Below, one piece after another: positions 26,522-50,005 of a stretch of 64,000 nucleotides of DNA. The stretch spans positions 7,262,655-7,326,654 of the forward strand of contig NC_134033.1 of assembly GCF_964204645.1 (NCBI RefSeq). Reading direction: 5' to 3'. Origin of the DNA: Tubulanus polymorphus. Its lineage: Eukaryota > Animalia > Nemertea. The notes beneath the pieces were generated by a model. That model was not told where the DNA came from. It was given only the letters and a program-made list of their open reading frames with translations, and made no database searches. The position numbers and the translations under genes are program-made. The first letter of the stretch is position 1, and each line of letters begins with the position of its first letter.

Positions 26522-26826
26522 TCTTCTTTTTTAACAAAAATTAAAGAAAAGTAATATCCTAAAATAACAATGATCAGTAACCATATGAAAATTACATGAA
26601 TCAACTTAAACACTAACGTACACTAAAATAGGTTGGGATACTCAAAAATAGTAAAACCAGCCTGTTAACTGAACTAGTTACAAGTACAAACTGTCTGATA
26701 TAGAAAATAAGCATAATAACACTTTACGACAATTACTTATCAGTAATAGGAAGATGTGGGTTTCATACCAGAGGACGAGAGGACGAGACACCACTCATCA
26801 CCACAAGTAATTTTTTTTCCTTATAA

Positions 26827-29800
26827 ATGGGAGAGAATGAACACCAACCAGAAAATAATAATGTTAATAAAAATCAATATTATTGCCAATATTGTAAAAA
26901 ATACGTCGATACATCTAATAAAACACGACATGAAAAAACTGCAAATCATATAAAAAATGTAATAGATTTTGAAACTCCAGAAAATTCCAATGAAAGAAAA
27001 GAAAGATTAGAAAATATGAATGTAGATGAAAATAAAATGTGAAGTTTGTAATGAATTTATAGTAAAAAGGAATTATAATAGACATCTCGAATCACAAAAA
27101 CACCATCAAAATTTGAGTAATAATGTTTTAGGAAAAGATTATTTTGATGATAAACCTCAAAAAGTAAAAGACCAACTTCAAAAACTAAATCCATTTCAAA
27201 TAAACCTTACATGGAAAATGTTAGAAATTATATTGATTCACTAGAAATAAAAGATACAATTGAAATATTAGAAACATTACGTAGTAAAATTGGTCCTGCA
27301 GCTATTATATTTAGATTTTTTAAAGGTACAACAATAGAAGATTATAGTAAATTTAATGAAATAATAGAAAAAATACTAGATTTGATAACAGATGTTGAAT
27401 ATCCAAAAATTAGTATCTCTGGGAAAGTAAGTTTTTTAAAGTCAGAAGATAAAATGGATTATAATATTCAAACACTCTCTGAAGAAATAATTTCAAAAAC
27501 ACAAATAAAAGAGAAGTTAGAAAAAATATTTAATGAATTTAAACGTCATATTGAAGAAAGATATTTTGAGGGTTCTGGCTTAACATTGAATGAAATTATA
27601 TTTTTAGATTTAAATGTTTATAATACAAAAAGAAAAGAAATAAAACATCAAAAAGTAATAAAATGTTTAAAAATGATTCAAACTTTACAACAGAAAAGGA
27701 GGATATAAAAGGATCATCTTATATTAAATTACCATTTACAACAAAAGCAGTAATAAATGTTCAAAATGAAGATAATAAATGTTTTCTGTGGGCAATTATT
27801 AGTTGCTTACATCCAACAGAAGATATTACATATAGTTTTAGAATAACAAATTACCGGAAATATGAAACATTATATAAAATTGATCAATATCCAGTAACTA
27901 TAAAAATGATTTCTAAAATAGAAAAAGTTAATAATTTAAAAATAAATGTATTCGAATTAATGCAATTACCAACGACAAAAGGTGAAAATATTAAAGATTA
28001 TACATTGGAAGCTTTTTATTTAACAGAATATTATGATGATGAAAATGCTATAGATTTGTTATATTACAAAAAAGATGAAAATGAACATTATATGTGGTTA
28101 AAACAAATTGATTTATTCTTTAGAACAGAAAGTGATCATCATCGTAAAATTTATCTATGTAGAAAATGTTTATCTAAATTTATGACTGAGAATACATTAT
28201 TAAAACATAAAGAATTATGTGATAATAAAGATTTTTGTAAATTAATAATGCCAACAGAAAAAGATTATAAATTTAAATTTACTAATCATAAATTTAAAAA
28301 TATTGTTCCATTTATAATTTATGGGGATTTTGAATCGTTGAATAAAGAATTAACTGATCAAGATAGAAAAGAAATATATAACAAAAAGCAATTATTAAAA
28401 TCAATGGATAAAGGAAATGAATTAAATGAAGACACAATACAAGACCCACCAACTATAAATACAATTGAAAAAGTTCATCAAAGAGCTGCTGCTTATGGAA
28501 TTTATATAAAATCAAATTATCCTGAATTATATGAAAGTCAATATATTTCGTTTAGAGGTGAAAAAGTAGTTAATGATTTTTGTGACAAAATGATTGAATT
28601 AGAAAGTGATTTTGCAAAATTATTAAACAAAAATAAAAGAATAGTAATGACAAAAGAAGATGAAATTGAAAAATTTAAAAGAATTATTGTGAAAAACGTT
28701 TTTATTCATTTGATAAAAAAGTTAGAGATCATGATCATTTAAATTCAAAATATCGTGGAGCTGCTCATGAAGATTGCAATTTACAAGCTAAGAAAGTTAA
28801 TTTCGTACCAATATTATTTCATAATTTATCAGGCTATGATACCCATCTATTTATAAAACAATTATCGGGAAAATTGGGCGCAATTAATCAAGAAATAGAA
28901 GAATATAATGCTATGAATGGTGTAAATGTAAGAAAATATGATTTTAAATTATTAGCTAAAACATCTGAAAATTATATTTCATTTCAATTTGGTTGCATTA
29001 GATTTTTAGATTCTTATAGATTTCTAGCAAGTTCATTAGATTATTTATCAAAAAGTTTAGTTGATAATGATTTTGTTATAACTCGATATTATTATCCAAA
29101 TGAACAAGATTTTAAATTATTGAGATATAAAGGCGCAATTCCTTGTTCATTTTATAAAACACACAATGATTTTAATGTAACAGAATTATTAAAAGATCAA
29201 TTTTATGATCAATTAAAAGACGAGTATGTGAAAGACGAAGTGTTTAATAGAACATTAAATATTTGGAACCATTTTAAGATGAAAAATCATGGCGAATTAG
29301 TTGATTTATATTTAAAATCAGATGTTATGATATTGGCTGACATATTTGAAAAATTTAGAGAAGTTAATTTGAATCATTTTAATGTTGATCCTTGTTATTG
29401 CTACTCTAGTCCTGGTTTAACCTGGCAATAATGTGGTTTAAAATATACTAATGTAGTGTTAGATTTATTAAAAGAACCAGACATGGTTTTATTATTTGAA
29501 AAATCAATTAGAGGTGGAATTAGTGGTGTTATGGGAGATATTTTAAAGCAAATGATGAATATAAATTATTATATATTGATGCCAATAATTTATATGGTTG
29601 GGCAATGATGCAACCTCAACCATATAAAAATTTTATATTAACAGAAGTTGAAAATGATGATAAAACTGATCGGGAAAGCGCAATTATGAGTTTAAAAGAT
29701 GAAGCACCAATTTGTTATTTCTTTGTAGTTGATTTAGAATATCCTGAAAATATAAAGTTTAAAACAAGAAACTTACCTTATTGCCCAGAACATTTAACTG

Positions 29801-31893
29801 TAGATGATATTTATTTAAGTGATTACCAGAAGAAAATAAAACCGAAAGATCATGTTTTTACAGAAAAATTAATACTTACTCAAAATAATAAATACAATTA
29901 TATTGTTCATTATAGAATGTTAAAATTTTATCTAAAACAAGATATGAAATTAAAGAAAGTACATAGATATATTGAATTTAATCAATCGAAGTGGTTAGAG
30001 AAATATATAGATTTCAATACTCAACAGAGAACAATATCAAAAACAGATTTTGAAAAAGATTTCTTCAAATTAATGAATAATAGTTTTTATGGTAAAACAT
30101 GCAAAAATATTAGAAATAGAAATGATATTGAATTAGTAAATAATTCTGAAAGATTAACACATTTACAATCAAGTCCTAGACATTTAGGAAATAAAAGATT
30201 TGAAGATTATTTAACAGCAGTTAAATTAAAAAGAACGTCAATGAAATTTAATAAACCTATATTCATTGGTTCAACTATTTTAGAAGTATCAAAATTATTA
30301 ATGTATGATTTCTATTATAATGTTTTACAACCACTTTTTGGGGAAAAGCATATTGAAATATTATATTTTGATTCTGTAACAGCTGACACCCCAATATTAT
30401 TAAAATGTAATGATAAAATATTGATAAGAAGAATTTCAGAAATAATTCCAAAACAAAATGAATGTTATATTTCATATGGTGAAAAAGAATTAATACAAAT
30501 AAATGGATTAATGGATGTTTGGACAAGAAATAGATGGAAAAAATTAAAGAATATTATTAGACATAAAACAAATAAGAAAATCTATAGAGTTAGAACTAAA
30601 TTAGGGTTTGTAGATGTTACAGAAGATCATAGTTTAATTAAACGAAATGGCGATGAAATAAAACCAACTGATATAAAAATTGGAGATGAATTATTACATA
30701 AAAGATTTTTCCAAAGAATGAATCATATGTCATTTGATGAAATAATTGATAATATTTATAATATAGAACCCGAAACATTAGAAGAAAAAGAATATTTTAT
30801 CAAAGGATTTTTTATGGGTGATGGTTCAGCAGGTGTGTATAATTATGTTTGGGGTAATAAATATTGTTGGTATTTATGCAATCAAGACTTAAAATTATTA
30901 GAAAGAATTAAGAAATTCTGTGAAGAAGTTTATTCACATAAAACATTCAGAATCATGGATGTTATGAAATCATCAGCAGTTTATAGAATACTTGTAAATA
31001 ATCCTAAAGATTTTGCTATAAAATATAATGATGAATTCTATATTCATGCAATAGCGGAAAGTAATACTTCAACAAAAGAAAAGATAGTTCCAGATTATGT
31101 ATTAAATGCAAAAAATAATTTAAGAAAATGGTTCTTCATTGGGTTCTATGCTGCAGATGGTTCAAAAAGTTTCAAAAAATGCAAAACGATATCTTTAGCT
31201 CAAAAAGGAAAAGTTGCTATATCAGGATTGAATATATTATGCAATTCATTAGGTTTTAATATGAATATTGGATTGATTAAATCTAAACCAAATTGCTTTA
31301 ATTTAAGCCATGTAGAAAATGAGTTAACAGAATAAGTTAAAGATTTATTTGAAATATATAACCCAACAGATTATGTTTATGATTTATCAACTGAAGATGG
31401 TACATTTAACTGTGGATTTCCATTAATAGCGGTCAATACTGATGCGTACATACTAAAAATCAAGACAAATGACATAACAAAAGACTTAAAAACATTAAAA
31501 CATCATTTTGATTTTAGCAATTATCCTAAAGATCATGAACTATTTAGCAATGATAATAAAAAGATTCCTGGTAAATTTAAAGGTGAATTAGGGGGTGATG
31601 AAATGATTGAATTTGTTGGGATAAGAAGTAAAATGTATAGTTACAGAACAAAAGATCATGAAGCTAAAAAGTTAAAAGGAATAACAAAACACGCGGTTGA
31701 TAAACATATAGAATTTCAAGATTATATAAAGTATTTATATAACTCAATTGTAATGAAACATAAAATGAATTGTTTAAGATCAGAAAATCACGAGATGTAC
31801 ATTAATGAAGTTGAAAAAACTAGTTTGAATCCATTTGATGATAAAAGGCATATTTTAGATGATGGTATAAAAACATTACCTTATGGCCATTAA
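26827..31893 (+). pseudogene. polB: Protein-primed family B DNA polymerase (group-2 type) with N-terminal Zn fingers/terminal-protein region, OTU-like protease motif, EndoVII/HNH insert and intein
   Basis: Motifs across the frameshifts include GSG, NEDNKCFLWA...HY, ExoI YGDFES, VRDHDH..YRGAAH..CN, ExoII FHNLSGYD and ExoIII YLKSDV. They continue with IRGG, motif A YIDANNLYG, motif B KLMNNSFYGK, motif C YFD/TD, KMYS and KLKG. There are about 5 frameshifts and 2 in-frame stops. Confidence 0.95.
30373..31437 (+). mobile_element. Intein with LAGLIDADG homing endonuclease (355 codons, one in-frame TAA at 31333)
   Basis: Block A is SVTADTP after YFD and block B is VTEDH. The LAGLIDADG motifs are KGFFMGDGS and IGFYAADGS. 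Block F is YVYDLSTEDGTF and block G is IAVN followed by extein TDAY. Confidence 0.95.
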
Positions 31894-33726
31894 AACAGAA
31901 AATCAATATCATCATACTCTATCATCATACTCTATATACTATTGGCTTCATTATTTTCATTTAATTGTTCTTGTATAATTTGTTTAGGTTCTTCCATTTC
32001 AATTTTTCCTTGTTAATTCGTCAGATGGAATTATAATATCGATGTTTAAATAATTTACAATCTTATTTAAAAAGAATTCCTAACTAATTGAATCTGTTAT
32101 TCTATTTTCCAAATGATACATTAATAGTTGTTTGAATGTTTTTTATATTTTCCATATCTTCTTCTGTTAATTTAGGTTTTTCATAATAATCGTTAAATAA
32201 TAAATATAAATACATTTTCTTTTGTTTTGTGTTAAATGTTGATGGAATAAATGTTTTTATAATATCTTTTTTAGTTATTTCACCATTTTTATTTTCTATC
32301 ATTTTCATTTTTTCAAGCCATTGCATATATTCTGGTGTATGATCTTCTATAGAAAATATTTTAAAAATTTCATCTAGATAATTTAATTATGGTTCTATGA
32401 GAAAATCTCTAGTTTTTTCTTCACCCCATAAATTCTTTTGCCATCCACATTCATTACAAAATAACACAGTACCTTCTTGTCTTAAGGTCGCATAACTACA
32501 TTGTGGGCATTTTTGTTTATAATTTATTGGTAATAGGTCTTCATTAAGCTCCTGGTATTTTCTTACGTTTTCTTTATGTTTTATTGTTCTATTATGTAGA
32601 TTTGAATTACTTGTTGTAATAATCAATTTACAATATTTACAATAATATGTTTTTCTTGTTAATTCATTATATCGTTTTTCTAATTTTTCAACTGTTTCTT
32701 TATTATCTGGTAACGTTTTCTCATATTTTATTTTTTCTAAACTATTTTTTCTTTCATTGAATTCTGCTTCAAATGTATTAGAAATTTTATCTATATGTAT
32801 TTTACGAAATTGATGATTCTCCCAATCTTCTATATTTTCAGGGCTATATTTTATTCGACAAGGCTCACAGAAATGATCTTTTATATTATCCTTATCATAG
32901 AATAAGAAAGGTCTTTTCCAAATAATTTCAGGTTCAACTTCAACAGAATTACTATTACTTTCATAACTATCAACATTAGCTGTTGCGCCATTAATTTTAC
33001 ACTTCTCTGAATGTTTTTTAACATAATTTCTTGAGAATAATTTATTACATTTTGGGCAATTTATTTTAGGGGGTTTATAATTTTCATCATGTTTTTTCAT
33101 ATGTGTATTCTTTTAATTCTACCATTTTTTATAACATAAAAAAATTACCGCTCATCACTAAAAATTAATTTTAATAAAATTTTTCCTTAATAAATGGATG
33201 AGAAGATACCATGCGAAATTTGTGGTGAACTTCTAAGAAAAAGTAATATGGCTCGACATATGAAAAAACATGATGAAAATTATAAACCCCCTAAAATAAA
33301 TTGCCCAAAATGTAATAAATTATTCTCAAGAAATTATGTTAAAAAACATTCAGAGAAGTGTAAAATTAATGGCGCAACAGCTAATGTTGATAGTTATGAA
33401 AGTAATAGTAATTCTGTTGAAGGCTCACAGAAATGATCTTTTATATTATCCTTATCATAGAATAAGAAAGGTCTTTTCCAAATAATTTCAGGTTCAACTT
33501 CAACAGAATTACTATTACTTTCATAACTATCAACATTAGCTGTTGCGCCATTAATTTTACACTTCTCTGAATGTTTTTTAACATAATTTCTTGAGAATAA
33601 TTTATTACATTTTGGGCAATTTATTTTAGGGGGTTTATAATTTTCATCATGTTTTTTCATATGTCTAGCCATATTACTTTTTCTTAGAAGTTCACCACAA
33701 ATTTCGCATGGTATCTTCTCATCCAT
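31891..33726 (-). pseudogene. Multi-zinc-finger protein (C2H2/U1-like fingers plus a C-terminal Zn ribbon), disrupted by stops and an inverted triplication
   Basis: Motifs are CEIC..H..H, CPKC, CEPC, CKYC and CPQC..CNEC. ORFs 33726-33394, 33100-32387 and 32326-32102 are pieces of one gene; the last two are in frame across a TAA. Confidence 0.7.
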
Positions 33727-33794
33727 TTATTAAGGAAAAATCTTATTTAAATTAATTTTTAGTGATGAGCGGTAATTTTTTTATGTTATAAATA

Positions 33795-34552
33795 ATGGTA
33801 GAATTAAAAGAATACAGAATATTTGTTGATTCTAGAAAACTTACAAATTATAAATCACATAATTTAATAGTTCAATTAGATAGAGAATTTAAGAATTGTG
33901 TTGATTTAAAATTAGTAAATATAAGTTTATGTAACTCATTTTACAATATATCGGATAAAAGTCTAGAACATTTAATTTTTTCAATCTTTTACAAAAAAGG
34001 AATAAATGGTTTTTTATATATTTAAAACCAGGATTATATAATTTAGATACATTAGCACAAGAAATTAATAGAAAAGCTCGAGCTAAATTAGGCAGTGATT
34101 CCGGATTTAGTATTAGAATTCTAAAAAGTGATAGTTCTAATAAAATAAAGATTAGGTTAGCTAATGACGAACAATTTAAATTTACAGTAAGAAAACCTTT
34201 AGGTAAACTGTCAGGAATTAACCCAGATATTGTTACAGCATACGCAGAAGGTAGATCAAACTTAATACCTTTTACACACTTGTATATTTATTGCAATTTA
34301 ATTGATCCTACAAAAACATTCGAAGCAACTAAAGATACAATTTGTAATTCTAGTATATTAAATATTTTACCATTAAAGAATGTTAAACAATTTGGAACGC
34401 AAATAAATTATACTTTAACTGAATGTGATTTTAAACCTTGTATTCCTCAATTTAATAATTTTAAATTAGAAATAAGAAATCATAATGGTTATTTAATTGA
34501 TTTGAATAACTTTCCTGTGATATATGAATTAGTTATAAGATGTAGAGAGTAA
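33795..34552 (+). pseudogene. Minor capsid (penton-like, single jelly-roll) protein, one frameshift ~34020
   Basis: The pattern IFVDSR...NSFYNI...PGLY...LYIYCNLI...IL..LP...LEIRNHNGYLIDL is typical of Polinton/virophage minor capsid proteins. Length is ~250 aa. Confidence 0.75.
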
Positions 34553-34568
34553 TTTTTTCACTATATAA

Positions 34569-34925
34569 ATGAATATAACTGTTGGACCGATTATATGTTT
34601 TGGGTTTGATTTTAAATGTGAGAAAGAAATGAAATTTAACATTAATGATGTAATTACACATATTAGAAATATTGCATTTTCTAATGAAACAACAGTTGAG
34701 TATGAAACAACAATAGATAAAGAAACTTTTAATGTAGAAAAGATAACTAATTTAATTAGAGAATCTTTAATATTTTATGAATTAGATGAAGATTTTATCA
34801 TCGATGATATTAAAAAAATAATAATTGAAATATATACAAATGAAACTAGTAATGAAATAAATGTTGAATTAATCGTAAATAAGTTAACTAAATATTTTGA
34901 TGATAGTAATATTTTTGATAAATAA
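34569..34925 (+). CDS. Hypothetical Polinton protein, 118 aa
   Basis: Intact ORF with an ATAAATG start, in a compact gene array. Confidence 0.7.
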   Translation: MNITVGPIICFGFDFKCEKEMKFNINDVITHIRNIAFSNETTVEYETTIDKETFNVEKITNLIRESLIFYELDEDFIIDDIKKIIIEIYTNETSNEINVELIVNKLTKYFDDSNIFDK

Positions 34926-35147
34926 ATGAGTGATAATAAGTGGATAATAACTGGATTATATAATGGAGCATTACTATCAGTTGGAACTGTTGGTTATTCA
35001 ATGGTATTAAAAAAAGTATTTAAAATGGGAAGTGTTACTGTTGATAGATTTGATATAAATGATATCTTAAAACTAACGTTAGCAATTACTTTATCTAATT
35101 TAACTATTGATTATTTAGAAAAACAAAAATATATTCCTCCCATATAA
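34926..35147 (+). CDS. Small hydrophobic protein, 73 aa
   Basis: Intact ORF with an ATAAATG start and two hydrophobic segments. Confidence 0.7.
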   Translation: MSDNKWIITGLYNGALLSVGTVGYSMVLKKVFKMGSVTVDRFDINDILKLTLAITLSNLTIDYLEKQKYIPPI

Positions 35148-35171
35148 ATACATAATTATTTTGCTAAATAA

Positions 35172-35591
35172 ATGGCTTCTGCAGTTATAACTATTATGGG
35201 ATCGGCAATTGTTAACGCTTTAGCATTTACTGGTGGCGGTTATTTATTTAAGCATATTGATAAAAATAGTTCATTAGGAGAACAAAGAAGACATAACTTA
35301 GCATTAGAGAAATACAATAAAGCAGCAGAAGAATATAGAGAAAAGAGGCAAAACTATATGGATTATATTAACAAGGAATTATATGATCAGAAGATTTCAC
35401 ATAGAGATTTTCAATCAGTCGATGATGCAATATATAACGCGGTAACCAATAAAGAAAAATTACAACTATAAAAACCTAAATTATCAGATTATTATACCCC
35501 AAGTAAAGAACAACAGAAATATGAAATAATTTGGATTTTAGGTTGAACAGTTATTGTTATATTTGTTGCTTATAAGTTTACTAATCAGTAA
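35172..35591 (+). pseudogene. Small protein with N-terminal amphipathic/hydrophobic helix, coiled coil and C-terminal TM
   Basis: MASAVITIMGSAIVNALAFTGGGYLF... A frameshift at ~35470 continues as KPKLSDYYTPS...IIWILG*TVIVIFVAYKF. Confidence 0.7.
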
Positions 35592-35607
35592 TTTTTTTTC
35601 TAAATAA

Positions 35608-36042
35608 ATGGAAGATAAAGTTGATAATATTGATATTATTCCTCATGATATAAATAAAACTAAATTAAAAATATATTTAGAAAAACAAATATTAAAATTT
35701 GAAAGTGACTTAAAAGTTAAAAAGAAAAAATATTTAAAAAGTAGAATTATATATTATCTTATTATCAGTGGTTCGGTTAGAATTAGTTCTGTAATAACAT
35801 TTCTAGCAAAATTCAGCCCATTAACACCTTTAGCTATATCAATTGGTGTGTTAGGATTAAGTTCAAGTGTTTTAACTGGTATAAGTTCAAAATTAAATAT
35901 AAAAAGTAATAAAGAAAAAATTAAAACTAATATAAAAGAAATTAATAAATTAAAGAATACACTAGATTATATAATAAGTTTAAATGGCCATATAACAGTT
36001 GAAGAACAAGATAAATTATTAAAAGAATTAATAAATTATTAA
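35608..36042 (+). CDS. Two-TM coiled-coil protein, 144 aa
   Basis: Intact ORF with an ATAAATG start. A hydrophobic hairpin is flanked by Lys-rich coils. Confidence 0.7.
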   Translation: MEDKVDNIDIIPHDINKTKLKIYLEKQILKFESDLKVKKKKYLKSRIIYYLIISGSVRISSVITFLAKFSPLTPLAISIGVLGLSSSVLTGISSKLNIKSNKEKIKTNIKEINKLKNTLDYIISLNGHITVEEQDKLLKELINY

Positions 36043-36058
36043 TTTTTTAATTATATAA

Positions 36059-37447: not shown

Positions 37448-37463
37448 TTTTTTTATTATATAA

Positions 37464-40243: not shown

Positions 40244-40273
40244 AAATATAAAGTTAAAATTAAGGATATATAA

Positions 40274-41393
40274 ATGGGTGGTAAAAAAACTCCTAATACT
40301 AAAGAACAATATTTAAGAAATTTATATTACAACCCTGAGAGTTCGGTTGCTTATTCTTCTACCAAAAATATACGGCGTCAAGTAAAACAAGATAAATTAG
40401 ATAAGATAATCCCACAAAATTTAGTTAAATATAAAGATATAAATGAATTTATGTTAGAACAACCAAGATACACAACACATAAAAAAATTGTTAGAAAATA
40501 TAAAACACGTAAAACTATGGTAAGTTATGTAGATCAACGGTGGCAAGGAGATTTAATTGATATGAAAAATGTTAAGAAAGATAATGATGATTATTGGTGG
40601 TTATTGAATATAATTGATATTTTTAGTCGTTATGTATGGAGTTTCCCACTTTATAGAAAAGATGCTGTACAAACATCAAATGTTTTAAGAAAATTTCTTT
40701 CGGATGATAAACTAAAACCAGAAAAAATACAATTTGATGATGGAAAAGAATTTGATAATTCACTTGTTCATGAACTCTTAGACAATCATAATATTAAATA
40801 TTTTTCAACAAAATCGGATAAAAAAGCAGCAGTTGTTGAACGATTTAATAGAACATTAAGAACAAGAATGTGGAAATATTTTACAGCAAATAATACTTTT
40901 AAATGGATTGATGTTTTACCAAAATTGATAGAAGGATATAATAATTCTTATCATTCTTCTATTGGAATGAAACCTATTGATGCTAGAAAACCTAAAAATT
41001 CTGAAATTGTTTGGAATAATTTATATGGAGCATTTCTTGTAGATGATTTTGGTGAACCTAAATTTAAAGTTGGTCAAAATGTTAGAATTTTGTTAGATAT
41101 GTTAGATATTTGACAAGGGATACGATCGAAATTTTACTAGGGAAATATATAAAAATAAAAAAGGTAATAAAAACAAAACCATATGTCTAGATTTAGATGG
41201 TGAAGAAGTTGATGGCTACTTCTACGAAGAAGAATTAAGTTTAACTACTGAAAATCTAGAACAAGAATATAAAATTGAAAAAGTATTAAAAACAAAAACT
41301 ATTAAAAGAAAAAAATATTCTTTAGTAAAATGGGTTGGATGGCCAGATAAATTCAATGAATGGATATTATCAAGTAAAATTAAAAATATATAA
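40274..41393 (+). pseudogene. int: Retroviral-like (rve) DDE integrase with C-terminal chromodomain
   Basis: The DDE triad is WQGDLID, QFDDGKEF and VVERFNRTL. After frameshifts the sequence reads FDKGYDRNFTREIY and YKIEKVLK...LVKWVGWPDKFNEWI (chromo-like). Confidence 0.93.
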
Positions 41394-42002
41394 ATGAATA
41401 AGGAATTATCTATATTTGAGCCTCATAATATGTTAATTTCTGGTGTAACAAATTGTGGAAAAACTTATTTTATATTAAATTTATTAGAAACTGTTTATAA
41501 AAAATATTTTGATAAGATAGTATTATTTTGTCCAACATATGAATTTAATCAAACTTATGATAGAAATATTACTAGAAATAATAAATTTATTATATTAGAT
41601 CCTAAAACAGTAAAAGAAAATTTAGATAATTGCATTAAAATAGCAATTGATATTTATAAAGGATCAAATACATTATTCATTATAGATGATTGTGCTAATC
41701 TACATGATTCAAAAGTTAGAGAGAGTGAGTTATGCTATTTAGCTTTTTCTGGCAGACATTTTGGGATAACAACTTGGCTTTTAAATCAAAAATATAATTC
41801 AATTGTTAAAGACTTTAGAGAAAACATTCGATTTCTAGTTTTATTCTACAATAAAGATAGAAAATCGATGAAAAATGCACTTGAGGAAAATGATATTATT
41901 CCACATGATTTACATAATGAATATATGGATAAATTGAAAAATATCAAAAGATCAAAATTACTATTTAGATTACAACACCCATTTAAATATGAATTTATTT
42001 AA
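41394..42002 (+). CDS. A32-like/FtsK-HerA DNA packaging ATPase, 202 aa
   Basis: Walker A is GVTNCGKT and Walker B is LFIIDD. The Arg-finger motif GRH and the conserved Q are present. The ORF is intact. Confidence 0.92.
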   Translation: MNKELSIFEPHNMLISGVTNCGKTYFILNLLETVYKKYFDKIVLFCPTYEFNQTYDRNITRNNKFIILDPKTVKENLDNCIKIAIDIYKGSNTLFIIDDCANLHDSKVRESELCYLAFSGRHFGITTWLLNQKYNSIVKDFRENIRFLVLFYNKDRKSMKNALEENDIIPHDLHNEYMDKLKNIKRSKLLFRLQHPFKYEFI

Positions 42003-42003
42003 A

Positions 42004-42177: not shown

Positions 42178-42661
42178 CAACATCACAAATAATTTTTTTG
42201 TTATATAAATGGTAGGTGAAAAGAAAATAAAATCTAAAAATGGTGATGTTCCAATTGAAAAAACTTTAGATGATTTAGGAATAACAGAAAACAAATTAAT
42301 TCCAGATGATGGTGCTTTAAATAATGTTACAACAAATAATAGTTATGAATATTATCTTTATTGTTAACATCAATTAGAAATATTAATAGCATCTGGAAAA
42401 TGTAAAAATTTTATCGGTAAAAATTTAACTTATAATGAAATTGGTGAATGAATGAATGAATATATTTTTCTCAAATGTATAATACATAATATAATAGTAT
42501 AATAATTGTTGTACATGATTATTGAATATATACATTCAAGCAGGACAGCCCCAAGCCCTAAGGGCTGTACCTAATTGGGGGGATGCCCTGGTATGATTTG
42601 ATACCATGATACAATTAATGAGAATACAATAATAATTAATGACAACATAATTGACATCAAA

Positions 42662-42900
<239 letters not shown>

Positions 42901-42965
42901 TATATAAATATTTTCGAAAACAAATGAAGGTAGGCAACACAAAAAAGGTTTCATTTTAGAATTAA

Positions 42966-45900
42966 TTAATAGTTCAAGAGTGTAGTTTTTTTTAATCGTG
43001 AGATAAAAGAATTTATGGTAGCAGCTTTGCGAAGATGATCATCAGTGTTCTGCCAAAGAATTGGAGTTCTACTTAAAAAAGAATCGTGAAAGAGTTTCGT
43101 GGTATGAAATTGGACTCTGGCATTATTCCTGTTTCTAGTGTTATAATTGTGGAATTTTGAATTTAAATCTAGTAAATTGTAGATAGACAAAGGGAGCTTT
43201 TTATGAGAATGATTAAATCCAAATTTAAGAATTTCTAATTTGACAAGATCGGCAAATTTTAAAATTTTGTATTTTTTGAAAATAGGGGATGTTGGTGCAT
43301 TGAAGGCAGCATTATCTATGAGTCGTACAGTTTTTTTCTGGATTTTGAAAATACTATTAGTTTGCTCAGAGGAAAGCAGTGGACCCCAGACAACCAGTGC
43401 ATAAATAAGATGACAGTGAATATATGAATTGTAAATAGTTTTTTTCAAAAAACCTGGGAACATATTCTTAACAGTCCTTAGCAGGTACACATTTTTATTC
43501 ATTTTATTGATAAGCTGTTTAATATGCAAATTCCAATTGAGATCAGCATCAATATTTAATCCTAGAAATTTACAGTCAGTAGATAATTCTATATTTAAAT
43601 TTTCTAATTCTATTTTTAAGTTGTCTGATCTCAATAGATGCCTTTTTGGTTTGAATAGAAAGTATTTAGTTTTTTCAATGTTCAGGGTAAGTTGATTGGC
43701 ATGGAACCAGGAGGTTAATAATTTTAAATCATTTTTAGCATTTTGAAACAGTTCAGAAATATTCTTTTCAGTACATAGAAGGTTTGTATCATCGGCAAAT
43801 TAGATGGCTTTAGAATGTTTGAGATTATTATTTAGATCGTTAATGTAAACAAGAAAGAGAAGCGGACCTAAGACTGAGCCTTGTGGTACTCCATGCGTAA
43901 GCATGTTGAAAGTCGAGTCAGCATTATTGTAGTGAACATAAATTTTTCTATCTTTGAGATAACTATGAAACCAGTTGAATACGTGTCCCCTAATTCCATA
44001 GTGATATAATTTATAGAGTAGTTTGTCAATATTTAACGAGTCAAATGCCTTAGATAGGTCAAGACATATACCCAAAGAAAAATTTCTTTTTTCTAAATTA
44101 GCGATAATGTTACCAATAAAATCAGCTATGGCATGAGTTGTAGAATGATTTGGTCTGAAGCCATATTGCGTAGTATTTAGAATTTCAAATTTAAACAAGA
44201 AATGATATAGTCGCTTATGAACAAGTTTTTCCAAGATCTTGGATAAGACTGGTAGTAGGGAAATTGGACGGTAATTGTTTAGAGTCTGTTTGCTTCCAGT
44301 TTTATGAAGAGGAATAACCTTTGCTATTTTCATTTTATCTGGGAATTTGCCTTCTTGAAGAGATTTATTACAAAGAATAGTCATAGGATTAATAATTGAG
44401 GGAGCAATAAATTTCAATAGTTTATTGCTTAAAATATCTGGACCCGTACTTTGTTTAGGCGAAAGCTGGTTGATCATTTTAAATATTTCCTCACTATTTG
44501 TAGGTTGCAGGAACATAACATTGTCATTTTTATTGGGAAGAAATGCCATAAAATTAGTAGTAGTGTTAGGTATTTTTTCTGAATACTTTCTGCCAACCGA
44601 AGAAAAGAAATCATTAAATGCAAGACTAATTTCGGAATTATCAGTAACCGTTTTTCCATCAATCTTAAAATTTGTCGTAATTGATGTTTTATCATTAGTC
44701 TTGCCAATTAGTTCTTTAATGAATTGCCACATTTTACGACAGTTTTTTCCAGAGGAATTAATTTTGTAATTATAAAAATCTATTTTTTGACGTCTTTTAA
44801 CATAGCTGAGCCGATTATGATAATTTATATAGTTTTTATAACGTTGGTCTGATTTATCTAACCCAATAACTTTTTTGTATAGATTATCACATTTCTTTGA
44901 GGATCTCAGAATAGAGTTAGTCATCCACGGCTCAATTAATTTGTTTTTCTTTTTTTAATTTCTGGAGCTATACTATTAATAGTATTAGTAATATTTGTCA
45001 TAATAAAGTCATACGATTCACTACAATTCATATTATCCAAATTTGACCAGTTAACATTTAAAAGGGTGTTATTTATTGATTGTATATTTTTAGCATTAAG
45101 GTTACGGGAGAAGAATTCATTTGTTGTTGGTCTAACATTATATACAATAGAAACGAAACAAGGCAAGTGATCCGAAATATCAGTTAGTAGTATTGCACTA
45201 GTGTGATTACTATTTAGTTCGGGAGAGAGGTATATGTTATCAATTAGAGTAGCAGTGGACTTTGTGATTCTTGTAGGTCGCAGTATTGTAGGGCATAGAC
45301 TATTGTTTAGGTTGATTTCTAAGAATTTTGATGTATTTTTATGACTATTGATCTTAATGTAGTCTAAATTCTGATCCATACCAAGAACTATCTCTGATTT
45401 TTCGTTATTAATTTTTGTAATTAAAGTTCTGTATTTTTCAAGAAACATTAGATCGCTATTGCCAGGTACTCTATATAATTCACCAATAATAATTTTCTTT
45501 TTAGATTGAGTTTTAGGATAAATTTCTATGAAACAAAATTCAAATTTACCTTCTTCAAAAATGTCCAAATCAGTTCTCGGGTTGTACGATATATTATCAT
45601 TAACGTAGATGGCGACTCCTCCTTGAGATAAATTCAGTCTATGATTTTCAATTAAATGATAGTTAGATAATTTACAAAGAGGTGCATTTTTATCTGTTAG
45701 AAAGGTTTCACATATCATTATGACATCTATAATAATACTTTGATTTTTAAAGATTTCTATCATAATTTTGAGTTTATCAATTTTTGAATAGAGACTACGT
45801 ACATTCAGTTGTAAGATATTAAGGTTGTTGGTAGTATTGAAATTATATACATCTTTCAGGTCACTGGGTTTAGTATATGGACATTGATTACTATCTAAAA

Positions 45901-45994
45901 TCAGATCATCATCAATGATTGAATTTAAATAATAATTTTTATCATTAGCTTTTTGTTTGAATAATTTAAAAAAATCTGTGTTGCCAAGACACAT
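42966..45994 (-). pseudogene. LINE ORF2: AP endonuclease + reverse transcriptase
   Basis: APE motifs are QLNVRSL, ICETF, GGVAIY, TLIDNIY and SDH. RT motifs are YRPISLL, DLSKAFD, GVPQGSVLGP and FADD. There is one frameshift (~44930) and one TAA (43800). Confidence 0.95.
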
Positions 45995-46793
45995 AATAAT
46001 TTAGAACAAATACGTAAAACCAAAAAGAAGAAAATTTGATAAGGAAAAAAAAGAAAAAAAAAAGAGTTTGTAATAAACAAAAAAAAAAATGCACAAAAAG
46101 ATGCTGACCTTTGACCGCCGTATACGGCAATAGTCAGCTAGTACTTGGTAGGTAGTTGATTAAATCAACTATGAGGCCAAGGCATATGTGTCAAGGTTAC
46201 AAATGAATCTTATATTTTAGTCAAACAGATTTAGAGATAAGCACTGTAGTTTGTGTTTATAATATTGACTACGTACTTTGAAATAATATGATCATCAATA
46301 GGAAAAATAAATCAAAATAAAATAAAGTAAATACTCTGTTGAAACCACGCTATCAACTGAGTTAAAAATAGTTGACAATTTACATACTTAGCTTCTTTAC
46401 TTTAAACTATCGAGTAATAGTGTCACCGAGTAACTTAAGAATATGCCAAGTCTTAGAAAAGGCAGACATACAAAAGTAAGAAACAGTATACAATATACAG
46501 TTCACCAGTATAGATGTGTCCTAGGTCATACCGGTAATACTAAATAAGTGTGTTTGAGCTTTTAGGTAATTTAGTTATAAATATTCATACTTTTTGGCTA
46601 TCATGACACTTGAGGGAAAACCAATTCAGCTTTAACGGTGTCACTCTTGAAATAGATGCTTACTTATTGAATGATTAAGTTATGTACAGATATTATGTTA
46701 GGTCATTAATCGAAAAAGATTATCCGCAAGAATTAATTACACCGGTATATGAATCATTTAAAAAGTCACCTTTTGGATCATATCTCTAGTCCT

Positions 46794-47678
46794 TTATGGA
46801 AGATTCTCAAATAACTTCAGTCTAATTATCTGTCCATTTTTAATTGCAAGCACCTTGCCATGAGATACAAACACAGTCTCGTATTTACCACTTTTGGAAG
46901 CATCATCCCTAAGTTTGGATACTTCAGGCGCTAAGTCCTCCTGTATAACAAATCCGGTTCCTTTAAGTTTTTTCCTGTTTTGTAGAACACGATCTCTAAT
47001 TCCACGAAATTTAAAACGCACAATTATGCCCGGTGGCTTTGGCTTAACAGAATTATTCGGTTGGTGACGCTGTATCAATCTATGTGCAACTTCAATATCA
47101 TCCTGTGATACTTTTTCGCCCTGTGGTAGTTGCAGCTTTTTAATCACTTTGTCAATTACAATTTTGGAACAATTTTCATTGTCTTTTACCGCTGGTAAAG
47201 AGGGACCATATATTCGTAAATTGTTTCTACGCGAGTATTGGTTATTCTCTACTACTCCGATTTTGAGTTTTTTTATATCCAATTTAAGAGAATTATTTTC
47301 AGTTGTTAGTTCAGTTACTTTTATTTCGTAGTCTTTGATTGTTTTTTCCATCATGCCAATTCGGTCAGTTAGAGATTTAATTTCAGTCTGAACAATTGTC
47401 GTTATTTCTGCAGTCAAAGTTTTTTTGAACTGATCCATATATGTTTCCATGTAGGTTATCGTAAGTGTTTCAGCTGATTCACTTGAATTAGATGAAGCCG
47501 GCCTAGGACGTTTATTACAGCGATTGTTTGTACTGGTATTAGAGTCTTCCATGAGATTATCTGCATCGCTGAACACTTCATCTGCCGTTGGTTCTTTATT
47601 CTGGCCTTGTTCTATAGACGGATCTTTTGTGAAGGCTGTTATAGTAGTCTGAGTCTGAGACGCCATGTCATCTGTCAA
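46794..47678 (-). CDS. LINE ORF1 (coiled coil + RRM-like RNA-binding domain), 294 aa
   Basis: A coiled coil is followed by NQYSRRNNLRIYG, IEVAHRL, IIVRF and IQEDL. The ORF is intact. Confidence 0.9.
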   Translation of the reverse strand: MTDDMASQTQTTITAFTKDPSIEQGQNKEPTADEVFSDADNLMEDSNTSTNNRCNKRPRPASSNSSESAETLTITYMETYMDQFKKTLTAEITTIVQTEIKSLTDRIGMMEKTIKDYEIKVTELTTENNSLKLDIKKLKIGVVENNQYSRRNNLRIYGPSLPAVKDNENCSKIVIDKVIKKLQLPQGEKVSQDDIEVAHRLIQRHQPNNSVKPKPPGIIVRFKFRGIRDRVLQNRKKLKGTGFVIQEDLAPEVSKLRDDASKSGKYETVFVSHGKVLAIKNGQIIRLKLFENLP

Positions 47679-48309
47679 TCAGCTGTCACTCAGTCACAAC
47701 ACAAATAGATATATGTTTAATCCTTTATAGACCAACGACGAAAATAAGTGAGTGAGTAGAGTAGTCCATGACACCTGTCACTGTTGATATTTTTCGCATT
47801 GATATTCACAAAATATTCACAAATTCACTCAAACGGCACATATCCGATCAGAAAAATTTCAAGACATCTCTAGATCCGACCGAGATAATTTAGCTTTTCG
47901 CAATGATACAAAAATCTCTAAATTATTTCCGACACATACCCCCGAAAAAGGCAGTTTTCAGGAGCTAAGTGCGCACACGACTGACCAGGTCGGCCATATT
48001 TTGTTGATACAATGAAATCAGATGAAATTATTAGATTATTTAAGATTCATGAAACCGCGAGAACAGCTAGAATTAATGACGCGATATCAGAAAATGTAGT
48101 AAAAGGTTACAGTAAATTATGTAATTATATGCTGCTAATTCAAGATGAAAATAGATTATATGCTGATTTAAAAAATGATTATTTAGTTATGACCGAATTA
48201 AATAAATGGATTGGATATTTATCATTTCAATTAGGTGGATTTATGACATTATTATCAACTGGAGTTATAACATTTTCAAATATTGAAAGTAAAAATATTT
48301 CTATAATAA

Positions 48310-48663
48310 ATGAACAAGGTGGAAGAAGTGAAGAAAAAACCGAGATCACAGAAACAAATTGAATGGTCTCGGCAATTAGGAATTAAATCACAAGAATATA
48401 AAAAAGCTGTAAAAGAAAAAATAAGTAATAAAAATGTTAATAAAAATGGTGAAAATATTGTTATTTCTACTCCTTCTAATGATAGAATATTTGATAAATG
48501 TCTATATTTTACAGTTGGATTTGTAATTGTATTCATTTTGATTGGGTGTAATTGGTATAAGAAATCAAATAAAATTCATGATATTAATAATTCTGAAACA
48601 ACTGCTATCAAAAATGAAAATACTTCTGAAATTCCAAAATTGATAATAAAAAAAATGGATTAA
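48310..48663 (+). CDS. Single-TM Polinton protein, 117 aa
   Basis: ATAAATG start, a basic N-terminus and the TM segment LYFTVGFVIVFILIGCNW. Confidence 0.7.
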   Translation: MNKVEEVKKKPRSQKQIEWSRQLGIKSQEYKKAVKEKISNKNVNKNGENIVISTPSNDRIFDKCLYFTVGFVIVFILIGCNWYKKSNKIHDINNSETTAIKNENTSEIPKLIIKKMD

Positions 48664-49602: not shown

Positions 49603-49928
49603 TTAATCAACAATTTCTAAATCATGATGACCGTCTTCATTTTTCCCATGGTAGATTATTTTAAATCCTTCTAAATCTTTTAATTCCTCTGTACTCAATG
49701 AAACCCATTTATCGGGTAAAAATACTTTAAATTCTCGCGATGTACTAACATTACAGTAGCTTAAATTAGCTGATACTTTCTCTCCATATTTAGTTTTTAT
49801 CTTTTCTATTTTCAATATTTTATGTTCAATTTCTTTTGTAACATCAACTAACTTTTTTATTTCAAATTGTTTTTTGCTGGTTTTATTCTGTTATTTATTG
49901 TTGCTAAGAATGCTTTTCTATCTCCCAT
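49603..49928 (-). pseudogene. Small beta-rich protein starting in the right TIR (possible OB-fold/SSB), one frameshift
   Basis: ATAAATG at 49928 gives MGDRKAF..., which shifts into ...KTKYGEKVSANL...FKVFLPDKW. The function is inferred only. Confidence 0.5.
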
Positions 49929-50005
49929 TTATTAGGAAAAAAAATTACTTGTGGTGATGAGTGGTGTCTCGTCCTCCGGTATGAAACCCACATCTTCCTA
50001 TTACT

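What the first reader, a model, noticed from the sequence alone, without database searches (positions are those of the whole stretch)
26742..50005. Nearly every Polinton gene starts at ATAAATG preceded by an AATTTTTT run: a poxvirus-like late promoter suggesting a virophage-like lifestyle
Seen: ATAAATG at 13 of 15 starts (26827, 33726-, 34569, 34926, 35172, 35608, 36059, 37464, 40274, 41394, 42209, 48310, 49928-). The MCP has ATAAACG, the minor capsid has TAATG, and 63806 also has ATAAATG. In most cases the TAA is not the upstream gene's stop. Most starts have a T6-T8 run ~8-15 nt upstream, and CCRCTCATCAC precedes the TIR genes and 33726. The genes are intronless, very AT-rich and have 0-30-bp gaps. 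Known: TAAATG is the poxvirus late initiator, and T-runs terminate pox and asfarvirus transcription. Virophages such as mavirus share late promoters with their giant-virus host. Inference: this element may be transcribed by a co-infecting nucleocytovirus RNA polymerase rather than host Pol II, making it an endogenous virophage-like element of an animal, possibly with an antiviral role.
Basis: partly seen in the sequence, partly recalled or inferred. Interest (0 to 1): 0.85.

Follow-up and report, generated by a model that had tools for sequence, protein, structure and literature searches.

The report
Poxvirus-style gene starts in a Maverick
Nearly every gene of this decayed virus-like transposon, and about half of all genes in its many relatives from environmental DNA, begins at the short signal that poxviruses use for their late genes, so the family is likely switched on by a co-infecting poxvirus-type virus rather than by the cell alone, which remains untested.

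Summary
Window 26742-50005 is a decayed Maverick/Polinton with ~93-nt terminal inverted repeats and a 6-bp target duplication (CTTATC). It carries a protein-primed PolB with an intein, an rve-chromodomain integrase, an A32-type ATPase and a double-jelly-roll capsid gene, and a non-LTR retrotransposon splits it.

- **Window:** 13 of 15 gene starts are ATAAATG, against 16 of 691 other ATGs (p 4e-18).
- **Relatives:** in 75 related metagenome loci, 149 of 310 ORFs start at TAAATG, against 4% of other ATGs (p 9e-109). This includes loci of 36-40% GC.
- **Upstream block:** a T block sits 9-12 nt upstream of TAAAT. That is the published vaccinia late-promoter geometry.
- **Sister clades:** they keep the two-part layout with other initiators (TATAWTATG, TATAGA).
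- **Function:** the cassette also heads divergent and terminal genes. It therefore marks gene starts and is not a 3' signal, a coupling site or an AT-rich Kozak context.

Which polymerase reads it is not shown. No RNA data, host genome or helper virus could be examined. A poxvirus-type helper polymerase (a virophage-like lifestyle) is my best reading, at about 0.45. Polinton-like viruses packaged with entomopoxviruses were reported in 2024, without any promoter analysis. I rate this a new variant of a known kind, of high interest.

The parts
26736..26741 (.). Left copy of the 6-bp target-site duplication CTTATC
   Evidence: The same hexamer abuts the right end at 50006-50011.
26742..26834 (+). 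Left terminal inverted repeat. It starts AGTAATAGG and contains CCACTCATCAC (26791-26801) and the first gene-start cassette.
26827..31893 (+). Gene for zinc-finger N-terminus plus protein-primed DNA polymerase B, starting at ATAAATG inside the TIR. It is broken into at least 5 frames, with in-frame TAA at 29429-29431 and 31333-31335.
   Evidence: Pfam zf-U1 3.8e-7 and DNA_pol_B_2 7.2e-6. Frames and stops. Cassette ccacaagTAATTTTTTTTccttATAAATG.
30373..31437 (+). Intein (Hint plus LAGLIDADG) inserted in PolB between YFD and TDA. It begins with Ser and ends with Asn, followed by Thr.
   Evidence: Pfam Intein_splicing 2.8e-6 and LAGLIDADG_3 1.3e-5. Boundaries. Reading YFD/TDA as motif C rests on my own recall of PolB motifs.
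32102..33726 (-). Minus-strand zinc-finger genes (zf-U1, C2H2, C-terminal zinc ribbon). The gene at 33726 starts at ATAAATG, preceded by CCGCTCATCAC.
   Evidence: tblastn to the L001 zinc-finger gene.
33104..33816 (.). Inverted duplication (319-nt arms, 99% complementary). It copies the 5' end and cassette of the zinc-finger gene, giving the extra ATAAATG start at 33194.
   Evidence: I1, I3
33795..34552 (+). Penton-like (minor capsid) gene, frameshifted. Its start context is ATAAATAATG after a T7 run.
   Evidence: tblastn to L001 565-1326. The penton role is inferred from position only.
34569..36042 (+). Four small genes (34569-34925, 34926-35147, 35172-35585, 35608-36042). Each starts at ATAAATG, and three are predicted membrane proteins.
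   Evidence: The 35172 gene runs through a stop to 35582 by homology.
36059..37447 (+). Homologue of a conserved ~440-aa protein with a C-terminal membrane anchor. It starts at ATAAATG and has an in-frame TGA at 36416-36418. Function unknown.
   Evidence: No Pfam match and no PDB sequence match.
37464..38944 (+). Homologue of the L001 485-aa protein, broken into three frames. It starts at ATAAATG.
38965..40243 (+). Major capsid protein gene (double jelly-roll). The start codon is mutated to ACG inside an otherwise intact cassette (TTAATTTTTTcgttaAATAAACG), and there is a frameshift near 39660.
   Evidence: 72-75% identity to the L001 capsid gene. The L001 model has pLDDT 82; Foldseek top hits are iridovirus, PBCV-1 and mavirus capsid proteins, E 5.6e-17..
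40274..41393 (+). rve integrase with C-terminal chromodomain. It starts at ATAAATG, has a frameshift near 41100, and its stop is the TAA of the next cassette.
   Evidence: Pfam rve 1.2e-10. Chromo 1.2e-6 in the L001 orthologue..
41394..42002 (+). A32-type packaging ATPase, intact. It starts at ATAAATG; the upstream block is A/T-rich but lies in coding sequence.
   Evidence: Pfam Pox_A32 7.2e-14. 194 homologues found.
42209..48362 (+). Gene starting at ATAAATG (42209-42442) and continuing at 48003-48362, split by an insertion.
   Evidence: tblastn to L001 9410-10027: residues 1-75 and 75-206.
42443..48002 (-). Inserted non-LTR retrotransposon (ORF1, endonuclease, reverse transcriptase) with a simple-repeat tail. 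It is not part of the element.
   Evidence: ORFs; boundaries. The domain names are read from the translations and were not run through Pfam.
48310..48663 (+). Gene overlapping the end of the previous one. It starts at ATAAATG inside the upstream coding sequence.
49606..49928 (-). Right-end gene starting at ATAAATG inside the TIR, frameshifted after 23 codons. It is the homologue of the 114-aa first gene of L001.
49921..50005 (-). Right terminal inverted repeat
50006..50011 (.). Right copy of the target-site duplication CTTATC

Best explanation
A fixed cassette, a T-rich block about ten bases upstream of TAAATG whose ATG is the start codon, precedes 13 of 15 genes of this integrated Maverick/Polinton and about half of the ORFs in 75 related metagenome loci. 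It likely acts as a compact promoter-initiator, predicted to be read by a poxvirus-type (nucleocytovirus) late transcription machinery supplied by a co-infecting virus.

**Shown.**
- The cassette is position-specific, family-wide and independent of base composition.
- It heads tandem, divergent and terminal genes alike.
- The reading frames and conserved N-termini begin at its ATG.
- Sister clades keep the two-part layout with other initiators.
- No RNA polymerase, TBP or poxvirus polymerase subunit was found in the element or in the relatives sampled.

**Inferred.**
- Transcription starts within TAAAT. This would give mRNAs with almost no templated leader, possibly with slipped 5' poly(A) heads as in poxvirus late mRNAs.
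- The T run, often fused to the upstream stop codon as TAATTTTTT, would double as upstream promoter element and terminator.
- The integrated copy would stay silent until a helper virus factory supplies polymerase and late factors, as mavirus does with CroV.
For: **Enrichment.**
- Window: 13/15 starts against 16/691 other ATGs, p 4.4e-18.
- Relatives: 149/310 non-overlapping ORFs of 60 aa or more against 354/8736 other ATGs, odds ratio 21.9, p 9e-109.
- Shuffled loci give 56/1257 (4.5%), against 154/411 for all real ORFs.
- A matrix trained on relatives finds 12 of the 13 window starts and nothing in the flanks.

**Not composition.** TAAATG holds in loci of 36-40% GC (L023 8/8, L027 6/6, L030 6/6, L024 8/9). 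It is spread over most clades of the ATPase tree.

**Geometry.**
- T frequency is 0.59, 0.82, 0.68 and 0.75 at -15 to -12. This is the 9th to 12th base upstream of TAAAT.
- At gene starts T at -14 is 0.83, against 0.44 at control TAAATG sites.
- The 2025 mBio review describes vaccinia late promoters as TAAAT followed by a G that overlaps the start codon, with a conserved T at the 10th nucleotide upstream surrounded by less-conserved Ts (PMC11980589, passages).
- TAAATG is also the late start in entomopoxvirus and salmon gill poxvirus (PMC3061580 and PMC4542343, passages).

**Promoter, not a 3' or coupling signal.**
- 38 of the 149 have a divergent upstream neighbour, and 28 have no upstream ORF on the contig.
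- In only 13 of the 83 tandem cases is the TAA the upstream gene's stop.
- The median gap is 20 nt.
- The intact relative L001 has the cassette at 15 of 16 starts, including the capsid gene, a deoxynucleoside kinase cargo gene and a 72-nt divergent pair.

**Clade variants.** L016 and allies have AATTT...TATAWTATG. L019/L020, at 49% GC, have ATTTTCT-N8-10-TATAGA-N0-4-ATG. This parallels endogenous mavirus-like elements, whose diverse promoter motifs were taken to imply different giant viruses (PMC8547959, abstract passage).

**Other support.**
- The element is 22-29% GC against 34-41% in the flanks.
- L019 has no AATAAA on either strand in 10.3 kb.
- T6 runs inside genes number 18, against 56.0 +/- 5.6 expected from synonymous shuffles.
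- Polinton-like viruses co-packaged with entomopoxviruses have been described (PMC11296320: abstract, sections 5, 6, 12).
Against: - I have no transcript data of any kind. The start site, poly(A) heads and dependence on infection are all untested.
- No helper virus or nucleocytovirus sequence was seen in the window or the loci.
- The host is unidentified.
- The element has a chromodomain integrase and a target-site duplication, so it has a nuclear phase in which host Pol II could act.
- The family is abundant in many kinds of metagenomes. This would require equally widespread poxvirus-type helpers.
- The sister-clade initiators (TATAWTATG, TATAGA) are TATA-like and are not poxvirus motifs.
- A-runs are also depleted in genes (225 against 351.7), so part of the T-run depletion is general homopolymer avoidance.
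- The only transcription-factor-like hit is below Pfam's cut-off and is not shared by other members: Pox_VLTF3, 19.9 bits against a cut-off of 25, in L019 only.
- Earlier notes of this scan report other Polintons that carry their own TBP with start-proximal TATA-like boxes. That points to a Pol II route in at least some lineages.
Confidence: 0.45

Rival explanations
1. The cassette is a compact promoter used in the nucleus by host RNA polymerase II. The polymerase would be recruited by a host factor or by an element-encoded factor, for example the zinc-finger or zinc-ribbon proteins at the ends. The element would then be an autonomous nuclear virus-transposon with very short leaders.
For: - The element integrates: rve integrase with chromodomain, and a 6-bp duplication.
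- The initiators in all clades are TATA-like.
- The element encodes several zinc-finger and zinc-ribbon proteins of unknown role, next to a separate upstream element, CCRCTCATCAC.
- Earlier notes of this scan describe Polintons with their own TBP or TFIIB and start-proximal non-standard TATA boxes (leads only).
- The family is very widespread.
Against: - The only conserved blocks lie at -17 to -12 and -6 to +3 relative to the ATG. Nothing is conserved near -30 to -45.
- With the usual 25-30 nt from TATA box to start site (established knowledge), either block would place the start inside the reading frame. Yet the frames and conserved N-termini begin at this ATG.
- T at -3 is a poor Kozak context (established knowledge).
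- No TBP or TFIIB was found in 25 window ORFs, 15 L001 ORFs or 89 further ORFs.
- L019 has no AATAAA for per-gene 3' processing.
Confidence: 0.3
2. The helper, or the polymerase, is of another kind. It could be a nuclear large DNA virus of arthropods with its own polymerase and TAAG-type late promoters, an asfarvirus-like virus with TATA-type late initiators, or a polymerase encoded on family members not sampled here.
For: - The sister-clade initiators TATAWTATG and TATAGA resemble TATA-type late initiators more than TAAAT. The comparison with asfarvirus and baculovirus late promoters is recalled, not taken from a call.
- An earlier scan note reports copies of a similar element carrying a poxvirus polymerase subunit in another genome (e1-8580207; unchecked).
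Against: - The dominant motif is exactly TAAATG, with the poxvirus T block.
- No polymerase subunit was found in any ORF scanned.
- The window element's gene set looks complete from end to end and has none.
Confidence: 0.12
3. The cassette works on RNA. It would be a translation re-initiation, coupling or internal-entry signal on polycistronic transcripts, or a polyadenylation signal (A/UAUAAA) for the upstream gene.
For: - An in-frame TAA abuts every ATG.
- Gene gaps are tiny: the median is 20 nt.
- Some cassettes contain AATAAA.
Against: - The TAA is the upstream gene's stop in only 13 of 83 tandem cases, and in 2 of 13 in the window.
- 38 genes with the cassette are divergent from their neighbour, and the first gene inside each TIR has it too.
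- The spacers have no conserved AG for trans-splicing.
Confidence: 0.07
4. The pattern is a by-product of A/T-richness, of an AT-rich Kozak context, or of how ORFs are called.
For: The element is 22-29% GC, so A/T words are common.
Against: - Background rates are 2.3% in the window and 4.05% in the relatives, against 87% and 48% at gene starts.
- Shuffles give 4.5%.
- The motif persists at 36-49% GC.
- A matrix trained elsewhere picks out the window's gene starts.
Confidence: 0.01

Closest known systems
Poxvirus late promoter (TAAAT(G) initiator)
   Same: TAAAT overlaps the ATG of the gene. A T-rich block is centred about 10 nt upstream of TAAAT, and the surroundings are A/T-rich.
   Different: It is found on a ~18-kb integrating Maverick/Polinton that has no poxvirus core genes. 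Nearly all genes carry it, not only a late class. Initiation within TAAAT and 5' poly(A) heads are not shown. Sister clades use TATAWTATG or TATAGA.
Virophages and endogenous mavirus-like elements that share promoters with their giant virus (mavirus/CroV, EMALEs of Cafeteria burkhardae)
   Same: A small integrating capsid-encoding element with pPolB and an rve integrase. One short motif sits before nearly every gene, and the motifs differ between element types (PMC8547959, passages).
   Different: Those hosts are protists, the helpers are mimivirus relatives and the motifs are different. Here the motif is the poxvirus one, the host looks animal-like, and no helper is known.
Entomopoxvirus-associated polinton-like viruses (AHEV_PLV1, AHEV_PLV2, CBEV_PLV1, Ca_PLV1; Barth et al. 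2024, PMC11296320)
   Same: They are proposed hyperparasites of poxviruses in animals. They have an A32-type ATPase and a double jelly-roll capsid protein, two of the four have a PolB, and one is integrated in a beetle genome.
   Different: They are about 12 kb. None has an rve integrase: two carry tyrosine recombinases and two have no detectable integration gene. They have an adenain-type protease and a PLA2-like protein. The paper's main text contains no occurrence of 'promoter', 'TAAAT' or 'motif'. Its supplements were not read. Their sequences are not in the collections on hand, so relatedness and their gene starts were not tested.
Maverick/Polinton elements (Polintoviricetes; adintoviruses)
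   Same: TIRs, a 6-bp target duplication, pPolB, an rve integrase, an A32 ATPase and a double jelly-roll capsid protein.
   Different: No adenain-type protease was detected. PolB carries an intein. The element is very A/T-rich. I found no described promoter of this kind for the group in the papers searched.

Membership tests
Maverick/Polinton (Polintoviricetes) | Terminal inverted repeats with a 5-6 bp target-site duplication | tested here: met
   TIRs at 26742-26834 and 49921-50005. CTTATC lies on both sides.
Maverick/Polinton (Polintoviricetes) | Protein-primed family B DNA polymerase | tested here: met
   DNA_pol_B_2 E 7.2e-6 on one fragment; its 25.6 bits are just under the 25.8 cut-off. 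Polymerase-like stretches are read in the other fragments. Relatives L042 and L074 hit the same family. The gene is broken.
Maverick/Polinton (Polintoviricetes) | Retroviral-type (rve) integrase | tested here: met
   rve 1.2e-10. A chromodomain is present in the L001 orthologue and in window 41106-41393.
Maverick/Polinton (Polintoviricetes) | Double jelly-roll major capsid protein and A32-type packaging ATPase | tested here: met
   Model of the L001 orthologue: pLDDT 82. Foldseek hits to nucleocytovirus and virophage capsid proteins, E 5.6e-17. Pox_A32 7.2e-14.
Maverick/Polinton (Polintoviricetes) | Adenain-type cysteine protease | tested here: inconclusive
   No Pfam hit in 25 window ORFs or 15 L001 ORFs. 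Several conserved proteins remain unassigned, and no fold search of them was done.
Poxvirus late promoter | TAAAT(G) overlapping the start codon | tested here: met
   13/15 window genes and 149/310 ORFs of relatives.
Poxvirus late promoter | Conserved T about 10 nt upstream of TAAAT within a T-rich, A/T-rich stretch | tested here: met
   T 0.59-0.82 at -15 to -12, against 0.39-0.44 at control TAAATG sites. The definition is from PMC11980589.
Poxvirus late promoter | Transcription starts within TAAAT, giving non-templated 5' poly(A) leaders | not testable with these tools
   No RNA data could be obtained.
Poxvirus late promoter | Dependence on the viral multisubunit polymerase and late factors (VLTFs) | not testable with these tools
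   This needs infection or in vitro assays. The only VLTF3-like hit is below Pfam's cut-off and is confined to L019.
Virophage lifestyle | Replication or expression only with a co-infecting nucleocytovirus; promoter shared with that helper | not testable with these tools
   No helper was identified, no genome is held and there are no reads.
Entomopoxvirus-associated polinton-like viruses | Sequence relatedness to KJ683044-KJ683046 or OX421890, and co-packaging in occlusion bodies | not tested
   The records are not in the collections on hand. Three IMG/VR scans found no close relatives.

The most novel reading that the evidence does not exclude
This is a large, previously unrecognised clade of endogenous virophages of poxvirus-type viruses in animals. 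These Mavericks sit silent in the chromosome and are transcribed gene by gene from poxvirus late promoters in the cytoplasmic factory of a superinfecting virus. The sister clades with TATAWTATG or TATAGA initiators are tuned to other helper lineages. On this reading, promoter type would reveal unseen animal nucleocytoviruses and a possible heritable antiviral system.
Probability: 0.4. Interest if true: 0.9.

Novelty: new variant of a known kind. Interest (0 to 1): 0.75.

Why it matters
How Mavericks/Polintons of animals express their genes is unknown. So is whether they are autonomous viruses, transposons or satellites of larger viruses.

A gene-by-gene poxvirus-type late promoter, conserved across a wide family, turns that question into direct experiments: 5' end mapping, co-occurrence with nucleocytovirus reads, and reporter assays.

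If the helper model holds:
- virophage biology would extend from protists to animals;
- the 2024 report of polinton-like viruses inside entomopoxvirus occlusion bodies would gain a mechanism;
- promoter variants could serve as markers for undiscovered helper viruses;
- it would raise the possibility of heritable anti-poxvirus defence.

If host Pol II reads the cassette instead, it would be an unusual promoter geometry for an animal nucleus.

Tried and rejected
- **RNA evidence.** The sequencing-run finder gave no answer, so no reads were laid. Start sites and expression remain open.
- **Whole genome.** None is held. Copy number, intact copies and host-gene start contexts could not be examined.
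- **IMG/VR scans.** I scanned with the ATPase, the ATPase alignment and the capsid alignment. Results: none, two marginal hits at 33% identity, and none.
- **Host identity.**
  - The only names attached to homologues are 'Bartonella sp.' on contigs under 2 kb. I read these as contamination.
  - The Atlas look-up of the flanking Ty3 pol points to arthropod and nematode clusters, which is weak.
  - The capsid search gave no names, but more distant relatives (35-40% identity) lie on contigs of 0.25-2.8 Mb.
- **Transcription proteins in the family.**
  - No TBP, TFIIB or polymerase subunit was found in 25 + 15 + 89 ORFs.
  - One Pox_VLTF3 hit in L019 scored 19.9 bits, below the cut-off of 25. It was not found in the other proteins scanned, and BLASTP found no similarity to the L001 485-aa protein. 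I rejected it as evidence.
- **Conserved ~440-aa protein.** A profile against PDB sequences gave nothing.
- **Alternative readings considered and rejected.**
  - Trans-splice acceptor: the spacers have no conserved AG.
  - Polyadenylation signal or stop-start coupling.
  - Composition or Kozak context.
  - Variant genetic code as the cause of the in-frame stops: they are TAA, TAA and TGA in a copy that also has frameshifts, and L001 is intact.
- **Terminal repeats on contigs.** None were found at the ends of L001, L005, L019 or L024, so they are partial.
- **Literature.** Seven full-text searches found no paper linking Polinton/Maverick genes to TAAAT. In the two papers where I opened such hits the TAAAT was in PCR primers; for the rest I saw only the search listings. 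Subscription journals are not covered.
- **Accession look-up.** KJ683044 is not in the collections.

Full report
**What is there.** Window 26742-50005 is A/T-rich: 22-29% GC against 34-41% in the flanks, apart from 34% across the inserted retrotransposon.
- It is bounded by inverted repeats that start AGTAATAGG, at 26742-26834 and 49921-50005. The hexamer CTTATC is duplicated on both sides.
- Pfam finds a protein-primed PolB with an intein, an rve integrase, a Pox_A32-type ATPase and several zinc-finger proteins.
- A metagenome contig, L001 (11.5 kb, 19.6% GC, ATPase 80% identical), is an intact syntenic relative.
- Its 415-aa protein, 72-75% identical to window 38965-40243, folds as a double jelly-roll. 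The model has pLDDT 82, and the best PDB matches are iridovirus, PBCV-1, mavirus and Sputnik capsid proteins, E 5.6e-17.

The element is therefore a Maverick/Polinton.

**The window copy is decayed.**
- PolB lies in at least five frames, with two in-frame TAA codons.
- The ~440-aa gene has an in-frame TGA.
- The capsid gene starts with ACG and is frameshifted.
- The integrase is frameshifted.
- A non-LTR retrotransposon (42443-48002) splits one gene.

**The observation.** All 13 ATAAATG starts are real.
- Taking genes as defined by homology to L001 or by Pfam, 13 of 15 starts carry ATAAATG. Only 16 of 691 other ATGs in the element do. Fisher p 4.4e-18.
- The two exceptions are visibly derived. 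The capsid gene has ATAAACG inside an intact cassette. The penton-like gene has ATAAATAATG.
- Upstream there is a T run that starts at -16 in most cases. It is T6-T8 in 7 of the 13, T4-T5 in 3 and absent in 3.
- The run is often written TAATTTTTT, where the TAA is the upstream gene's stop.

**Relatives.** The ATPase has 194 homologues at E 1e-3 or better, almost all on short metagenome contigs. One scan of metagenome contigs returned 75 loci.
- In these, 149 of 310 non-overlapping ORFs of 60 aa or more start at TAAATG. Of all other ATGs, 354 of 8736 (4.05%) do. Odds ratio 21.9, p 9e-109.
- The ORF caller does not create this. In dinucleotide-preserving shuffles 56 of 1257 ORFs (4.5%) have TAA before the first ATG, against 154 of 411 in the real loci.
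- L001 has the cassette at 15 of 16 starts.
- The motif holds in loci of 36-40% GC (L023 8/8, L027 6/6, L030 6/6, L024 8/9, L011 2/2) and is spread over most of the ATPase tree.
- A position matrix from the relatives shows T at -15 to -12 (0.59, 0.82, 0.68, 0.75), A at -17 and -16, A/T at -6 to -4, and G or A after the ATG.
- At control TAAATG sites that are not gene starts, T at -14 is 0.44 against 0.83 at gene starts.
- Scanned over both strands of the window, that matrix finds 16 sites of 12 bits or more. None lies in the host-like flanks.

**What kind of signal.**
- Of the 149 genes, 83 have a same-strand gene upstream, 38 have a divergent neighbour and 28 have no ORF upstream on the contig.
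- The TAA is the upstream gene's stop in 13 of the 83. The median gap is 20 nt.
- The first gene inside each TIR of the window, and the 72-nt divergent pair of L001, carry it too.
- The signal therefore marks gene starts. It is not a 3'-end signal or a stop-start coupling site.
- The spacers have no conserved AG, which argues against a trans-splice acceptor.
- Reading frames and conserved N-termini begin at this ATG. Upstream sequence is usually the previous gene. The mRNA 5' end must therefore lie within about 20 nt of the ATG; this step is inferred.

**Sister clades.** They keep the two-part layout with other initiators.
- L014-L016 and L025 have AATTT followed by TATAWTATG.
- L019/L020, at 49% GC, have ATTTTCT, 8-10 nt, then TATAGA, 0-4 nt before the ATG.

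**Comparison with what is known.**
- A 2025 review of vaccinia and mpox gene classes states that late promoters contain TAAAT, typically followed by a G that overlaps the start codon. It adds that there is a conserved T at the 10th nucleotide upstream, surrounded by less-conserved Ts (PMC11980589, passages). In this family the T block is the 9th to 12th base upstream of TAAAT.
- TAAATG is also the late start in an entomopoxvirus and in salmon gill poxvirus (PMC3061580 and PMC4542343, passages).
- Inferring a helper from shared promoters is the logic used for endogenous mavirus-like elements (PMC8547959, passages).
- Polinton-like viruses co-sequenced from entomopoxvirus occlusion bodies were proposed in 2024 as the first hyperparasites of poxviruses (PMC11296320: abstract, sections 5, 6, 12, 21). 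That paper's main text has no occurrence of 'promoter', 'TAAAT' or 'motif', and I did not read its supplements.
- Two 2026 preprints on polinton-like virus diversity also have no 'promoter' (passages only).
- My full-text searches found no paper that links Polinton or Maverick genes with TAAAT. In the two papers where I opened such hits the TAAAT was in PCR primers; the rest I saw only as search listings.
I treated it as a lead. I found no such subunit in 25 window ORFs, 15 L001 ORFs or 89 further ORFs of relatives.

**Mechanism.** My best reading (0.45) is a compact promoter-initiator read by a poxvirus-type late transcription machinery supplied in trans.
- The conserved blocks lie 10-15 nt apart and abut the ATG. 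This fits nucleocytovirus promoters. It does not fit the 25-30 nt from TATA box to start site of Pol II; that figure is established knowledge, not tested here.
- Nearly all genes share one promoter class, as in virophages.
- The element is far more A/T-rich than its surroundings.
- The 49%-GC relative has no AATAAA at all.
- Sense-strand T6 runs are depleted inside genes, 18 against 56.0 +/- 5.6 expected. A-runs are also depleted, 225 against 351.7.

*Against this reading.*
- There are no RNA data and no helper virus.
- The host is unidentified.
- The element has a nuclear integration phase.
- The sister-clade initiators are TATA-like.
- The family is very wide.
- Notes from other windows report Polintons with their own TBP.

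*The main rival (0.3)* is host Pol II directed by an unknown host or element factor. The zinc-finger and zinc-ribbon proteins, and the separate CCRCTCATCAC element before the terminal and zinc-finger genes, are candidates.

*Other readings.* Another kind of helper or polymerase gets 0.12, an RNA-level signal 0.07, and composition 0.01.

**What remains open.**
- The transcript start sites, and whether expression depends on infection.
- The host species.
- Copy number and intact copies in the genome.
- Whether the known entomopoxvirus-associated elements are related or carry the same cassette. Their records are not in the collections on hand.

**Verdict.**
The poxvirus late-promoter resemblance is specific and quantitative. 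The virophage-like lifestyle is plausible but untested.

Noticed in passing
window 30373-31437: An intein (Hint plus LAGLIDADG homing endonuclease) sits in the element's PolB between YFD and TDA. It runs from Ser1 to a final Asn followed by Thr, and now carries an in-frame TAA. A search for 'intein' with 'Polinton' listed 18 papers. I opened one, and its passages did not bear on this.
   Followed up: partly
window 22075-25275; 63130-63395: The element's terminal 9-mer AGTAATAGG also begins two other structures. One is an A/T-rich 3.2-kb unit with 229-nt and 155-nt inverted arms, internal 24-nt tandem repeats and a 177-aa ORF. The other is a 266-bp foldback. Both look like non-autonomous derivatives that use the same ends.
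   Followed up: partly
window 63400-64000: An A/T-rich stretch (24-28% GC) lies after the foldback. It holds a zf-U1-like gene (ATG at 63477) and the Cys-rich gene at 63806 that starts at ATAAATG. It has no similarity to L001 proteins and runs off the window.
   Followed up: partly
window 42443-48002: A non-LTR retrotransposon on the minus strand, with a simple-repeat tail at 42444, is inserted in an element gene. The insertion happened after the Maverick integrated.
   Followed up: partly
window 36059-37447; L001 2996-4324; alignment A3: A ~440-aa protein with a C-terminal membrane anchor has 71 invariant columns across 12 members (36-45% identity to L001). It has no Pfam hit and no PDB sequence hit. 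Function unknown.
   Followed up: partly
L019 2448-2858; L001 10343-10981: Relatives carry cargo genes: a Bcl-2 family apoptosis regulator (Pfam 2.3e-18) and a deoxynucleoside kinase (1.7e-31). Each sits behind its own clade's gene-start cassette. The Bcl-2 gene argues for an animal host of that relative.
   Followed up: no
L019 (10.3 kb, 49% GC): There is no AATAAA on either strand and only one ATTAAA on the gene strand, although 15 genes are packed with gaps of 0-25 nt.
   Followed up: partly
window 26791, 33148, 33762(-), 49954(-): CCRCTCATCAC lies 25-35 nt upstream of the zinc-finger and terminal gene starts only. It may be a separate control or end-recognition site. These are two independent occurrences, each duplicated, and there are none in 77 related loci.
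   Followed up: partly
proteins P0057, P0073, P0182: ATPase and capsid homologues of this family are filed in public databases as proteins of several 'Bartonella sp.' isolates, on contigs under 2 kb. This is probably eukaryotic or viral contamination of those assemblies.
   Followed up: no
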